Of a stretch of 47,493 bases of DNA, positions 42,001-45,000 are shown piece by piece. Position numbers: made by a program. Within the stretch, counting starts at the first letter, position 1. Each line of letters starts with the position of its first letter. Origin of the DNA: a virus; UHGV virus genome UHGV-0021965, one strand, 5' to 3'.

Positions 42001-45000
42001 TCTGGAAGCTGGATCGGCTTGGACGCTCACTCATACATCTCGTCGATTTACTGCGCTATTTCCGGGCTAATAATATTGAATTTGTCTCAATCACAGAGGG
42101 GATAAGAATCAGCACATCAATCGGCCGATTCGCATACACAATGCTGAGTGCTGCGGCTGAGATGGAAAGAGAAAATATCATTGAAAGAACGAGAGCAGGT
42201 TTAGCTGTGGCAAGGGCAAAGGGAAGAATAGGTGGGAGGCGTCCAAAGCTCACCCAGGAACAATGGGACCAGGCGGGCCGACTGATTGCGAACGGCGTGG
42301 ACAGGAAGCAGGTGGCGATCATCTACGATGTGGCTGTGTGCACGCTTTATAAAAAATTCCCCGTTTCAAAACCGGCTTAAATTTGCTCACACAGAGTTAC
42401 TGTAACAAAATTTACAAAACTCATAATTCGAAGCGACATAGAAACTTAGAAACGAAACGGCGAAGCTTTAAGCATTCATGACAGACTCTCTGTCTTGCGT
42501 GCATACCCAAATGAAACTACTGTATATAAAAACAGTATTTGAGGTATGCAACATGGAATTTATCAGGCCTGCAGAACTGCGAGAAATTATTGCTCTCCCG
42601 CTTTTCAGTGACTTAGTGCAGTGTGGTTTCCCAAGCCCTGCGGCTGATTACGTTGAACAGCGCATCGATCTCAATGAGTTACTTGTTGCTCACCCGAGCT
42701 CAACGTATTTCGTCAAAGCCGCGGGCGATTCAATGATCGAAGCCGGGATTAGCGACGGCGATCTGCTGGTGGTGGACAGCTCCAGGACTGCTGAGCATGG
42801 TGACATTGTCATCGCTGCGGTGGAAGGGGAGTTCACTGTTAAACGCCTGCAGCTGCGCCCGACCGTGCAACTCAACCCTATGAACAGCGCCTACAGCCCG
42901 ATTGTTGTTGGCAGCGAAGACACGCTGGACGTTTTCGGCGTCGTGACTTTCATCGTTAAATCTGCGAGCTGAATATGTTTGCTCTCTGTGATGTGAATTC
43001 GTTCTACGCATCATGCGAGACTGTATTCAGGCCGGACCTGAGAGGGCGGCCGGTTGTTGTTCTCTCAAATAATGATGGCTGTGTAATCGCACGCAGCGCA
43101 GAAGCAAAAGCGGTCGGAATCACTATGGGGGAGCCATTCTTCAAGCAAAAGGAGCTTTTCCGGCGCGCTGGCGTTGTTTGCTTCAGCAGCAATTACGAGC
43201 TTTACGCTGACATGTCGAACCGGGTAATGACGACGCTTGAGGAAATGAGCCCCCGCGTTGAAATTTACAGTATCGACGAAGCTTTTTGCGACCTGACAGG
43301 TGTTCGCAACTGCCGGGACCTGACTGAGTTCGGCAAAGAGATCCGCGCTACGGTTCTGAAGCGGACGCATCTGACGGTCGGGGTTGGCATTGCCCAGACG
43401 AAAACACTGGCGAAGCTGGCCAACCACGCCGCGAAGAAATGGCAGCGGCAAACGGGCGGGGTAGTGGACCTGTCCAATATCGATCGCCAGCGACGACTCC
43501 TTGCCCTGGTACCTGTAGAGGATGTGTGGGGCGTCGGTAGGCGCATCAGCAAGAAGCTAAACGCCATGGGCATAAAAACTGCCCTCGACCTTTCTGAACA
43601 AAGCACGTGGATTATTCGAAAGCACTTCAATGTCGTCCTGGAGCGAACGGTCCGGGAGCTGCGCGGCGAACCATGTCTTGATCTGGAGGAGTTTGCGCCG
43701 GCAAAGCAGGAAATCGTCTGCAGTCGGTCATTTGGCGAACGCGTTACTGAGTATGAGCAGATGCGCCAGGCTATCTGCAGCTATGCCGCCCGTGGTGCTG
43801 AAAAACTTCGGGGTGAGCATCAGTACTGCCGCTTTATCTCTGCGTTCGTGAAAACCTCTCCCTTTGCGCTTAACGAGCCGTATTACGGTAACAGTGCGTC
43901 CATGAAGCTTCTCACACCCACTCAGGATTCCCGCGACATTATCAACGCCGCGGTAAAGTGCCTGGACAAAATCTGGAAAGACGGTCACCGGTACCAGAAG
44001 GCAGGAATCATGCTTGGGGATTTTTTCAGCCAAGGCGTGGCACAGTTGAATCTTTTTGACGAAAACGCGCCGCGGGCTGGAAGCGAAAGGTTGATGGAAG
44101 TGCTCGATCATCTGAATGCTAAAGACGGGAAAGGAACACTCTACTTTGCCGGGCAAGGCATACAGCAGCATTGGCAGATGAAACGCGAGATGCTTTCACC
44201 ACGATACACCACACGTTACAAAGACTTACTGGTCGTTAGGTAAAGGCTTTAATTTTTGAAATCGCATTTCTTTCAAATGTGATTTTCATCTTGGATACAC
44301 AATATAGTGTTGTTAAGATGATGTATCTAAAAAAATAGTAATTCTTTTCGACGGACTGTGATAGTAATGAATGTAGTCGATTTTTTATCAAGTGACATTT
44401 GGCAAGGATTGAGTGTTTTATCCCCTATAGCCATTTCGTTATGTGCGATTCTATACTCTAAATTTCTTTTCAAAAGAGGTTTTCGAACTAAAAACTCTCG
44501 CTTTAAAGACACAAAAAACCTACCAAAAGATTTGTATGAAGGACAAAATACAACACTTTACGGCAAAGTTAGAGAAGAGGTTTTTCCAGGCCCACCAAAT
44601 TATGAGTCCATAAATGATGGGGATGAGCCGCAGTTCTACTGGATTCTTTATGTAAATGAACCTATTAAGCTGGCGGGACGAAGCATGGAGGATGATTCTC
44701 TTTATGAAAAAGGATCATCATGTATGTTCCAGTTATGTCTTACACGCGAAATTTATGATAAACGATTAGATATCCTTAATAAATATGTTAGTGTTGAAGG
44801 AGAGATTTTTTTAGGGCATACAGGCCACCATAAAACCAAAGCTCTTTTGAATGTAAGCACTATAAAAATTATTAAATAATTAGCATGGTAGTCTAGCTTT
44901 TTAAACTCTTTGGATTAGTAATTTTCCCTTATTTGATGTTGTATTAATTCAACACCTTGGTTGTTTGGATTTCCCACGGCACGCGACACTGCGTGCCAGA

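What the first reader, a model, noticed from the sequence alone, without database searches (positions are those of the whole stretch)
44244..44900. AT-rich island with a membrane-anchored unknown protein and a nested palindrome upstream
Between umuC and the SRAP gene lies an AT-rich 0.65-kb island encoding a ~170-aa protein with one N-terminal TM helix. Upstream is a nested inverted repeat (TTTGAAAT-cgc-ATTTCtTTCAAA, 44263-44285) that looks like a regulator-binding site rather than a terminator.
Basis: inference. Interest (0 to 1): 0.45.

Follow-up and report, generated by a model that had tools for sequence, protein, structure and literature searches.

The report
Mobile membrane-anchored DUF4431 gene in prophage
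The AT-rich patch between umuC and the SRAP gene is a real, horizontally acquired single gene for a small membrane-anchored protein of the uncharacterised DUF4431 family, while the upstream "palindrome" is no more than chance and is not conserved.

Summary
The island and the gene are confirmed. The palindrome-as-operator idea is not.

- **Island:** 44244-44914 has GC 0.334, against 0.535 for umuDC and for the SRAP gene.
- **Gene:** 44367-44879 (+) encodes a 170-aa protein that passes Pfam DUF4431 (39.1 bits; cut-off 24). It has 57 homologues, and dN/dS against relatives is 0.07-0.12.
- **Fold:** AlphaFold2 (pLDDT 85) gives one N-terminal helix and a five-stranded OB-fold barrel. Structure searches return only generic SSB, PriB, RPA and YgiW similarity.
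- **Family:** most of the ~3,400 clusters are secreted proteins with a signal peptide and a conserved Cys pair. This small clade instead has an acidic N-tail, one TM helix and 4-7 Lys/Arg after it, and lacks the Cys pair. I infer that the barrel faces the cytoplasm.
- **Mobility:** the gene keeps GC near 0.35 in hosts of GC 0.26-0.61. It occurs in prophage ends, an ICE, a Vibrio integron array and defence islands.
- **Slot:** a Klebsiella phage carries ImmA/IrrE and XRE genes in the same umuC-SRAP slot.
- **Palindrome:** it lies at 44255-44277, not 44263-44285. An equally good one occurs in 12.5% of shuffles. It is deleted or replaced in the 83-86% relatives.

The function is untested. My best guess is a membrane-tethered binding or sensor module serving the mobile element. 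Interest is modest.

The parts
44244..44914 (.). AT-rich island filling the gap between the convergent umuC and SRAP genes
   Evidence: GC is 0.334 against 0.535 on both sides. Homology with Klebsiella phage ST846-OXA48phi9.2 stops at the umuC stop codon and resumes inside the SRAP 3' end.
44367..44879 (+). Gene for a 170-aa DUF4431-family protein (ATG start; alternative GTG at 44358)
   Evidence: Pfam PF14485 E 6.3e-10, 39.1 bits against a cut-off of 24. 57 homologues, the best 94% identical and also 170 aa. dN/dS is 0.07-0.12.
44400..44471 (+). Single N-terminal transmembrane helix (about residues 12-35), preceded by an acidic 11-residue tail with no Lys/Arg
   Evidence: The AF2 model has a helix at 10-38. 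The best 19-residue hydropathy window starts at residue 17. The N-flank has 0 K/R and 2 D/E.
44472..44516 (+). Strongly basic juxtamembrane stretch (KRGFRTKNSRFKDTK)
   Evidence: There are 7 K/R in the 15 residues after the helix. The 'RxFRSKNSxF' pattern is conserved across the 29 TM-type homologues. A cytoplasmic side is inferred from the positive-inside rule.
44529..44870 (+). OB-fold beta-barrel (residues 55-168), the DUF4431 domain in the wide sense
44583..44624 (+). Conserved loop F73-P-G-P-P-N-Y-E80 ... G85-D86 (between strands 1 and 2)
   Evidence: Invariant or at least 90% conserved columns in the 46-sequence alignment A1.
44814..44837 (+). Conserved G-H151-T-G153-H-H155-K-T loop (between strands 4 and 5)
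   Evidence: H155 is invariant; H151 and G153 are at least 90% conserved. This is the core of the Pfam model match at residues 122-166.
44255..44277 (.).
   Evidence: Found. An equally good repeat occurs in 12.5% of shuffles. It is not conserved in relatives.
44286..44321 (.). Second, larger imperfect dyad TCATCTT-N22-AAGATGA, inside the only well-conserved upstream block
   Evidence: 18-nt arms, 72% complementary. RNA hairpin energy -13.6 kcal/mol. Identical in L001, but its pairs are broken in L095 and L097 without compensation.
44291..44319 (+). Candidate own promoter: -35 TTGGAT (44291-44296), 17-nt spacer, -10 TAAGAT (44314-44319)
   Evidence: Inference only. These hexamers lie in columns conserved across all six upstream sequences. 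They fall below the threshold of the consensus scan, which found no + strand promoter here.
42518..42537 (+). LexA box (TACTGTATATAAAAACAGTA) in front of umuD; possible upstream control if the gene is read through from umuDC
   Evidence: Exact CTGT-N8-ACAG match at 42520-42535. No terminator-like site between umuC and the ORF. Co-transcription is inferred, not shown.
42553..44243 (+). umuD (42553-42972) and umuC (42975-44243), left neighbour
   Evidence: Pfam IMS, IMS_C and DUF4113 for umuC. The Peptidase_S24 plus IMS gene pair is called in the syntenic locus L001.
44915..45598 (-). SRAP (YedK-like) gene, convergent right neighbour
   Evidence: Pfam SRAP E 7.7e-51.

Best explanation
The island is a self-contained, horizontally mobile single-gene insert (a "moron"). 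It occupies a variable slot between the convergent umuC and SRAP genes, in the accessory arm of a lambda-like prophage that ends at a tRNA-Pro attachment-site copy.

Shown:
- The gene is real and under purifying selection.
- Its product belongs to Pfam DUF4431.
- The modelled structure is one N-terminal helix followed by an OB-fold barrel.

Inferred:
- Topology. The protein is a bitopic inner-membrane protein with a short acidic tail outside, one TM helix, then a very basic stretch and the barrel on the cytoplasmic side. That is the opposite side from the secreted majority of the family.
- Binding face. The family's invariant residues lie in the loops between strands 1-2 (FPGPPNYE..GD) and strands 4-5 (GHTGHH). 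These loops form the usual ligand-binding face of OB folds. I therefore read the barrel as a membrane-tethered binding or sensor module. The ligand is unknown; candidates are a divalent metal, a nucleic acid or a protein.
- Role (weakest step). A function that serves the mobile element or its host on its own, most plausibly exclusion of or defence against other invading DNA.
- Expression. Either from a weak promoter of its own in the conserved block 44291-44319, or by read-through from the LexA-controlled umuDC operon.

The upstream palindrome has no demonstrable role.
For: Gene and family:
- Pfam DUF4431 scores above its gathering threshold.
- There are 57 homologues, with full-length matches down to 42% identity.
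- dN/dS is 0.07-0.12.
- The family has 3368 clusters at 50% identity. Only about 5 are of the TM type, and only 4 of 185,579 species genomes carry it.

Fold:
- The AF2 model has pLDDT 85.2.

Topology inference:
- All 29 TM-type sequences have 0-1 K/R before the helix and 4-7 after it.
- Secreted relatives show the reverse pattern, with an AxA cleavage site and a Cys pair at least 90% conserved. The TM-type lacks that pair.
- A relative fused to an HNH nuclease (L075) has no hydrophobic segment and also lacks the Cys pair. This shows that cytoplasmic versions of the domain exist.

Mobility and autonomy:
- The gene's GC is 0.34-0.41 whatever the flanking GC, which ranges 0.26-0.61.
- Its contexts are two different prophage ends, an ICE, a position next to Ogr/Delta, a Vibrio integron cassette array and chromosomal islands.
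- A related phage has ImmA/IrrE plus XRE in the same umuC-SRAP slot.

Defence neighbourhood:
- PDC-M40A/B/C (L095), PDC-S20 and a caspase (L006), a PsyrT/DpdF-like helicase (L017), a type I restriction enzyme, BstA, and AbiTii in the window itself.

No terminator lies between umuC and the ORF.
Against: - No function has ever been tested for any DUF4431 protein. Searches for DUF4431 and PF14485 found no paper.
- The protein matches no PADLOC, PHROG or NCBIfam model.
- In Morganella morganii a 63% homologue sits among housekeeping genes in hundreds of assemblies. That fits a general cellular role better than a defence role.
- The neighbourhood argument has no background control and rests on about 10 independent contexts.
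- The topology is a charge-rule inference, not a prediction from a dedicated tool or an experiment. The rest of the family, including its Zn-ribbon-TM and anti-sigma fusions, is extracytoplasmic.
- Weak links to Nramp and MgtE neighbours in distant members point to metal handling instead.
- The candidate promoter is below consensus-scan threshold.
Confidence: 0.5

Rival explanations
1. The protein is a working partner of the SOS cargo module. A membrane-tethered OB fold would bind single-stranded or damaged DNA. It would be co-transcribed with umuDC under LexA control and act with Pol V and the SRAP abasic-site sensor.
For: - Every relative of at least 83% identity lies directly after umuC, with SRAP or its remnant convergent downstream.
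- No terminator lies between umuC and the ORF, and a LexA box lies at 42520-42535.
- The closest folds are SSB, PriB and RPA.
- A relative is fused to an HNH nuclease.
- The SRAP-UmuCD linkage is an established neighbourhood (PMC3765255).
Against: - The adjacency is confined to one closely related lineage that shares homologous flanks, so it counts as one insertion event.
- Homologues of 42-67% identity lie in unrelated contexts without umuDC or SRAP.
- The same slot holds other cargo in a related phage.
- The family as a whole is secreted, where there is no DNA to bind.
- The 2013 survey of SRAP neighbourhoods mentions no membrane or OB-fold partner.
Confidence: 0.12
2. The barrel faces the periplasm like the rest of the family. 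The protein would be an envelope component that binds a metal ion, peptidoglycan or an envelope enzyme, simply anchored by an uncleaved signal-anchor.
For: - Nearly all of the ~3,400 family clusters have signal peptides, or Zn-ribbon/zf-HC2-TM, LysM or LprI fusions that place the domain outside.
- The closest non-TM relatives (44-46% identity; Cellvibrio and other Gammaproteobacteria) are secreted.
- The GHTGHH loop looks like a metal site, and Nramp or MgtE are neighbours in some distant members.
Against: - The charge distribution is inverted in all 29 TM-type sequences: 0-1 K/R before the helix and 4-7 after.
- Moving 5-7 Lys/Arg across the membrane contradicts the positive-inside rule (established knowledge).
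- The disulfide-type Cys pair, conserved in at least 90% of secreted members, is absent.
- No signal-peptidase motif follows the helix.
Confidence: 0.22
3. One reading: the nested palindrome upstream is the operator of a regulator that controls the island gene.
For: - A perfect 7-bp inverted repeat exists at 44255-44277.
- The intergenic RNA folds somewhat better than shuffles (z -2.32; 5 of 200 shuffles fold as well).
- One G-C to A-T double change keeps the inner 5-bp repeat in L001.
Against: - 12.5% of shuffles give an equally good repeat.
- It is deleted in L095 and L096 and replaced in L097 and L098, although the gene is kept.
- No conserved structure is found.
- The motif is not repeated elsewhere in the prophage.
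- It lies 12 nt after the umuC stop and about 35 nt upstream of the conserved block, so it is outside the likely promoter.
Confidence: 0.04

Closest known systems
Pfam DUF4431 (PF14485): secreted, ~140-aa bacterial proteins of unknown function
   Same: - The sequence matches above the gathering threshold.
- It shares the invariant FPGPPNYE..GD and GHTGHH loops.
- It shares the single OB-type barrel.
- It is usually a standalone gene.
   Different: - Typical members have a cleavable signal peptide and a conserved Cys pair, so they are extracytoplasmic.
- The window's clade has an acidic N-tail, a TM helix and a basic stretch, and no Cys pair.
- It is rare (about 5 of 3368 clusters), AT-rich and carried on mobile elements.
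SSB / PriB / RPA-type and anticodon-binding OB folds
   Different: - No sequence relationship is detectable.
- TM-scores are only 0.3-0.5.
- The conserved loops are unlike those of SSB.
- The protein is membrane-anchored.
- Most of the family lies outside the cytoplasm.
YgiW/BOF periplasmic OB-fold proteins and Tannerella potempins (OB-like lipoprotein protease inhibitors)
   Different: There is no Pfam or sequence match, the conserved motifs differ, and the window's protein is probably cytoplasm-facing.
Accessory 'moron' genes in the lambda b-region, including small membrane-anchored superinfection-exclusion proteins of temperate phages
   Same: - The position matches: after the tail-fibre genes and before the attachment site of a lambda-like prophage.
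- It is a single small gene with deviant base composition.
- It has an N-terminal membrane anchor.
- It is interchangeable with other cargo in related phages.
   Different: - No sequence or fold relationship to any named exclusion protein was found.
- There is no PHROG match.
- The role is inferred from position only.
Membrane-anchored small-barrel effectors of abortive-infection systems (e.g. CBASS Cap15: TM helices plus a ligand-binding beta-barrel; recalled from memory)
   Same: This is a 'works like' analogy only. An N-terminal TM segment is joined to a small cytoplasmic ligand-binding barrel. The same barrel is joined to a nuclease (HNH) in a relative, the kind of effector swapping seen in defence systems.
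   Different: - It is not homologous.
- No cyclase or other signal-generating partner gene is adjacent in any context examined.
- There is no PADLOC hit.

Membership tests
Pfam DUF4431 (PF14485) | Match to the family HMM above the curated gathering score | tested here: met
   39.1 bits against a cut-off of 24, E 6.3e-10, residues 122-166 covering model positions 3-47 of 48.
Pfam DUF4431 (PF14485) | Family-wide invariant residues (F-x-GPPNYE, GD, Q, G-H-T-G-H-H) | tested here: met
   G66, G75, L94, G145 and H155 are invariant. F73, P76, P77, N78, Y79, E80, G85, D86, Q122, H151 and G153 are at least 90% conserved in A1, and all are present in the window protein.
Pfam DUF4431 (PF14485) | Typical architecture: Sec signal peptide plus a conserved Cys pair (secreted protein) | tested here: not met
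   The window clade has no K/R before the hydrophobic segment, 4-7 after it, and no conserved Cys pair. Secreted members show the opposite. This is a property of most members, not part of the Pfam definition, so membership stands but as a distinct sub-type.
SSB/PriB-type single-stranded-DNA-binding proteins | Sequence homology to SSB/PriB families | tested here: not met
   No SSB or PriB family among the Pfam hits. No PDB chain matched by sequence at E up to 10.
SSB/PriB-type single-stranded-DNA-binding proteins | OB fold | tested here: met
SSB/PriB-type single-stranded-DNA-binding proteins | Binding of single-stranded DNA | not testable with these tools
   Needs EMSA or fluorescence anisotropy with the purified barrel (residues 51-170).
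Known or candidate anti-phage defence proteins (PADLOC-DB v2) | Match to a defence-protein HMM | tested here: not met
   0 families at E up to 1. Neighbouring genes in several loci do match.
Known phage protein families (PHROGs v4) | Match to a PHROG | tested here: not met
   0 families at E up to 1. tblastn against 50,697 phage records gave one 31% partial hit, in a Salmonella contig.
Regulator-binding palindrome (operator) | Conservation of the dyad in orthologous upstream regions, or recurrence in the same element | tested here: not met
   Mutated in L001, deleted in L095/L096 and replaced in L097/L098. No recurrence in the window above chance.
Intrinsic (Rho-independent) terminator | G+C-rich stem followed by a T-run | tested here: not met
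   No terminator-like site at 44244-44366 on either strand. The stems are A+T-rich and are followed by no U-run.
Integron gene cassette | attC recombination site directly downstream of the ORF | tested here: not met
   In the window only 35 nt separate the stop codons of the ORF and the convergent SRAP gene. A 50% homologue does sit in a Vibrio parahaemolyticus cassette-like array, but attC sites there were not examined.

The most novel reading that the evidence does not exclude
The TM-type DUF4431 clade is a new single-gene protection system carried by prophages, ICEs, satellites and integron cassettes. It would act by superinfection exclusion or abortive infection. In this reading, an OB-fold binding domain from a large periplasmic family has been re-targeted to the cytoplasmic face of the membrane. 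There it would sense an invader's component (DNA, protein or metal-dependent signal) through its FPGPPNYE and GHTGHH loops and act through its membrane helix. A sister architecture uses an HNH nuclease as the effector instead.
Probability: 0.18. Interest if true: 0.6.

Novelty: new member of a known kind. Interest (0 to 1): 0.3.

Why it matters
On its own the finding matters little. It puts a family name, a fold and a likely topology on a "hypothetical protein" in a prophage cargo region, and it removes a spurious regulatory element.

It would matter more if the inferences hold.
- DUF4431 is a family of about 3,400 clusters with no paper and no solved structure.
- The TM-type clade moves between prophages, ICEs, integron arrays and defence islands as a single gene with constant low GC. 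Autonomous protective genes often show this signature.
- A periplasm-to-cytoplasm switch of a binding domain would also be an instructive case of domain re-use.
- The gene is small and easy to test.

Tried and rejected
Searches that found nothing:
- Megablast of 44100-45000 against E. coli genomes, phages and plasmids: no hit.
- Sequence search of the PDB: no hit.
- PHROGs, PADLOC and NCBIfam: no hit for the protein.
- Literature searches for DUF4431 and PF14485: no paper.
- Rfam E-value scan of 44000-46500: nothing in the island.
- Foldseek against the AlphaFold database was unavailable.

Searches that gave only weak or generic results:
- Foldseek against viral structures gave only weak SSB-like hits.
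- Pfam scan of the immediate neighbours at 75 distant DUF4431 loci found no dominant partner. Nramp matched 5 of the 138 neighbour proteins scanned, all in Acidobacteriota, so probably one lineage.

Ideas rejected:
- Spurious ORF, because of dN/dS and the homologues.
- Terminator function for the hairpins.
- A conserved RNA structure in the 5' region.
- A LexA box in the intergenic region. The only CTGT-N8-ACAG sites nearby are at umuD and dinI.
- An intrinsic functional link to umuDC/SRAP as the main explanation, because the slot is variable and more distant homologues lie elsewhere.
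Full report
**1. 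What is in the sequence**

The interval 44244-44914 lies between the umuC stop codon at 44241-44243 and the stop codon of a convergent SRAP gene. umuC (42975-44243) matches Pfam IMS, IMS_C and DUF4113. The SRAP gene (44915-45598, minus strand) matches Pfam SRAP at E 7.7e-51.

Its GC content is 0.334. umuDC and the SRAP gene are both 0.535, and the whole window is 0.514. Only 1.5% of 671-bp windows are this AT-rich.

Almost all of the island is one ORF, 44367-44879 (+), 170 aa from an ATG. A GTG three codons upstream is the mechanical ORF start. A 123-nt region lies upstream and only 35 nt downstream.

**2. The ORF is a real gene of a catalogued but unstudied family**

- Pfam DUF4431 (PF14485) matches residues 122-166 with 39.1 bits, against a cut-off of 24.
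- PHROGs, PADLOC, NCBIfam and a PDB sequence search give nothing.
- No paper in the library mentions DUF4431 or PF14485.
- A search of 5.8 billion proteins returns 57 homologues. The closest are 94% (Enterobacter sp. DNB-S2, also 170 aa), 86% and 83% identical. Full-length relatives of 42-67% identity occur in Citrobacter, Aeromonas, Morganella, Vibrio, Pseudoalteromonas and Natronospirillum.
- Nei-Gojobori dN/dS against five relatives is 0.07-0.12.
- A profile search of 1.84 billion cluster representatives finds 3368 family clusters at E up to 1e-3 and 1853 at E up to 1e-10.

**3. Fold**

AlphaFold2 on the 46-sequence alignment A1 gives mean pLDDT 85.2. The model has a long helix at 10-38, a lower-confidence linker, and a five-stranded barrel with one short helix (residues 55-168, mostly pLDDT above 90).

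- SSB, PriB and the potempins.

**4. A sub-type with an apparently inverted topology**

The family-wide invariant positions are G66, F73-x-G-P-P-N-Y-E80, G85-D86, L94, Q122, G145 and H151-x-G153-x-H155. From general knowledge of OB folds, the loops between strands 1-2 and strands 4-5 flank the usual ligand-binding face. I infer that these residues form the binding site, but I could not measure distances in the model.

Most of the family is secreted.
- The 222 hits in 185,579 species genomes are mostly Acidobacteriota, Pseudomonadota, Myxococcota and Verrucomicrobiota.
- They begin with a classic signal peptide (basic n-region, AxA) followed by a conserved Cys (C-L-x-Y-E-P). A second Cys after strand 2 is at least 90% conserved.
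- Longer members carry Zn-ribbon or zf-HC2 plus a TM helix in front, or LysM, LprI or Sel1 modules. These architectures place the domain outside the cytoplasm.

The window's clade differs in all 29 sequences examined.
- The tail before the hydrophobic segment has 0-1 Lys/Arg and 1-2 Asp/Glu (consensus M-x-x-FLSxxxWQG).
- The 15 residues after it hold 4-7 Lys/Arg (RxFRSKNSxF).
- There is no cleavage motif.
- The Cys pair is absent.

By the positive-inside rule this predicts N-out, C-in. The barrel would then sit on the cytoplasmic face. One relative (L075, a gammaproteobacterial MAG) is an HNH-nuclease-DUF4431 fusion with no hydrophobic segment and no Cys pair. Cytoplasmic versions of the domain therefore do exist.

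This topology is an inference. I put it at about 0.7.

The TM-type is rare. It accounts for about 5 of 3368 clusters and is found in only 4 species-representative genomes.

**5. Context: a mobile single gene in a variable slot**

The window's structural genes are 91-95% identical to lambda-like phages mEp237, HK225 and N15. After the tail-fibre region the order is:
- a Hin-type invertase (41823-42380);
- umuD and umuC, with a LexA box at 42520-42535;
- the island;
- the SRAP gene;
- a DinI gene (45826-46065, minus strand) with a LexA box at 46107-46122;
- a 50-nt stretch (46276-46325) 100% identical to E. coli tRNA-Pro, most simply an attachment-site copy that marks the prophage end;
- an AbiTii gene beyond it.

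Every relative of at least 83% identity shares the umuC-DUF4431-SRAP order. This holds in a different Enterobacter prophage (L001, L002) and in two metagenomic lineages (L095, L096 and L097, L098). In L097 the SRAP gene has decayed. These loci share homologous flanks, so they count as one ancestral insertion.

Klebsiella phage ST846-OXA48phi9.2 has Hin - hypothetical - umuD - umuC - [hypothetical, ImmA/IrrE, XRE] - SRAP. Its homology to the window ends at the umuC stop codon and resumes inside the SRAP 3' end. The slot is therefore exchangeable.

More distant TM-type homologues lie elsewhere:
- in an ICE (AcaB, TraG-type genes);
- beside an Ogr/Delta gene with a caspase-WD40 protein and a KAP NTPase;
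- next to cysC in Aeromonas;
- in a Vibrio parahaemolyticus array of small co-oriented genes typical of a chromosomal integron;
- among housekeeping genes in Morganella morganii, in hundreds of assemblies.

The gene's GC is 0.34-0.41 everywhere, while flanks range from 0.26 to 0.61.

Genes within about 8 kb of TM-type copies include:
- PDC-M40A/B/C (L095);
- PDC-S20 and a caspase (L006);
- a PsyrT/DpdF-like helicase (L017);
- a type I restriction enzyme;
- BstA;
- P4-like integrase, primase and Ash genes.

This is suggestive guilt by association, but it has no background control.

Immediate neighbours of 75 distant, secreted members show no dominant partner. Nramp matched 5 of the 138 neighbour proteins scanned, all in Acidobacteriota, and MgtE matched 2. 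That is a faint hint at divalent metals, which the GHTGHH loop would fit.

**6. The palindrome**

The quoted string is at 44255-44277, not 44263-44285. It is a 7-bp perfect repeat, TTTGAAA-N9-TTTCAAA, overlapping a 5-bp one.

- *Chance.* An equal or better repeat occurs in 12.5% of dinucleotide-preserving shuffles of the intergenic region.
- *Recurrence.* The motif does not recur in the window above chance.
- *Folding.* The whole 123-nt region folds a little better than shuffles (-25.2 kcal/mol, z -2.32). It forms two hairpins, at 44259-44285 and at 44286-44321.
- *Conservation.* Both outer arms are altered in L001, the element is deleted in L095 and L096, and it is replaced in L097 and L098.
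- *Covariation.* RNAalifold finds no conserved structure (-5.4 kcal/mol, covariation +0.17). The second hairpin's pairs are broken without compensation.
- *Terminator test.* Neither hairpin has a G+C-rich stem or a T-run, and no terminator-like site was detected.

The conserved upstream block is 44281-44320. It contains a possible -35 TTGGAT and -10 TAAGAT with a 17-nt spacer, which is an inference and falls below the consensus-scan threshold. An ACGGA sits 11-12 nt before the ATG.

**7. Interpretation and confidence**

| Claim | Confidence |
|---|---|
| Real protein-coding gene | about 0.97 |
| DUF4431 member | about 0.98 |
| Horizontally acquired single-gene insert in an exchangeable prophage slot | about 0.85 |
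| Bitopic membrane protein with a cytoplasm-facing barrel | about 0.7 |
| Binding or sensor module using the two conserved loops | about 0.6 |

The biological role is open. My split is:
- exclusion or defence serving the mobile element, 0.3;
- metal or other ligand handling with a general cellular role, 0.3;
- partner of the umuDC/SRAP damage-tolerance module, 0.1;
- other, 0.3.

The palindrome as a regulatory site gets about 0.04.

**8. Novelty and interest**

The protein is a new member of an already catalogued, uncharacterised family. Near-identical proteins are already labelled "DUF4431 domain-containing protein" in NCBI.

The TM-anchored, probably cytoplasm-facing, mobile sub-type has not been described, as far as I could find. 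It is worth a cheap experiment, but nothing here would surprise a specialist. The regulatory element that motivated part of the finding is not real. Interest is 0.3.

Noticed in passing
window 46276-46325 (minus strand): A 50-nt stretch is 100% identical to part of E. coli tRNA-Pro and is present in all 5426 E. coli genomes. ARAGORN finds no complete tRNA in the window. It is most simply an attachment-site duplicate marking the end of the lambda-like prophage. A strong bidirectional terminator-like hairpin lies just before it at 46241-46268.
   Followed up: partly
window 46329-47297 (minus strand): A 322-aa AbiTii-family protein (Pfam PF18864 E 1.3e-35; PADLOC AbiTii E 2e-35). Its C-terminal 120 residues match phrog_16090. 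It lies immediately beyond the tRNA-Pro fragment, so outside the prophage proper or in a tandem island.
   Followed up: partly
window 45826-46065 (minus strand) and 46100-46128: A DinI-family gene (Pfam E 2.6e-21) has a perfect LexA box, CTGTAAATATATACAG, at 46107-46122. The box overlaps the best promoter-like site of the region (TTGACA-17-AAAAAT). With umuDC and SRAP it makes a compact SOS cargo module at the prophage end.
   Followed up: partly
window 41823-42380 (+) and 40950-41700: A Hin/Gin-type serine invertase gene follows a G+C-rich (0.64) tail-fibre-like region. The Klebsiella phage with the same umuDC-SRAP arm also has a Hin recombinase there. This may be an invertible tail-fibre segment.
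   Followed up: no
window 16068-16083: A third exact CTGT-N8-ACAG site, CTGTAAATATAAACAG, is AT-rich in the spacer like genuine LexA boxes. It lies far from the SOS cargo genes.
   Followed up: no
window ~251-1200 and ~18400-19100: These are the only other stretches in the window as AT-rich (GC 0.36 or below over 671 bp) as the island studied here. They may be further acquired inserts.
   Followed up: no
L095 1965-5086: In the metagenomic relative with the 86% homologue, the SRAP gene is followed by a complete PADLOC candidate system: PDC-M40A (a SUKH/SMI1 protein), M40B (E 8.8e-272) and M40C (E 6.1e-167).
   Followed up: partly
L075 5680-6363: A 227-aa HNH-nuclease-DUF4431 fusion has no hydrophobic segment and no Cys pair, in a gammaproteobacterial MAG. 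The DUF4431 part scores 19.4 bits, below the Pfam cut-off, but tblastn to the window protein gives E 4e-15.
   Followed up: partly
L045, L048, L051, L064, L077 (Acidobacteriota): A secreted DUF4431 gene lies 45-77 nt upstream of a ~440-aa gene on the same strand. Nramp (MntH-type) is the only Pfam family matched by five neighbour proteins (best E 1e-97), and I assigned those five matches to these downstream genes by their size rather than by a per-protein table. This could be a lineage-specific operon linking the family to divalent-metal uptake.
   Followed up: no
L018 5911-6505; L097 1150-1317: These are decayed copies. The Rheinheimera oceanensis TM-type DUF4431 gene is split by a frameshift. 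In L097 the SRAP gene downstream of an intact DUF4431 gene is reduced to a C-terminal remnant.
   Followed up: no
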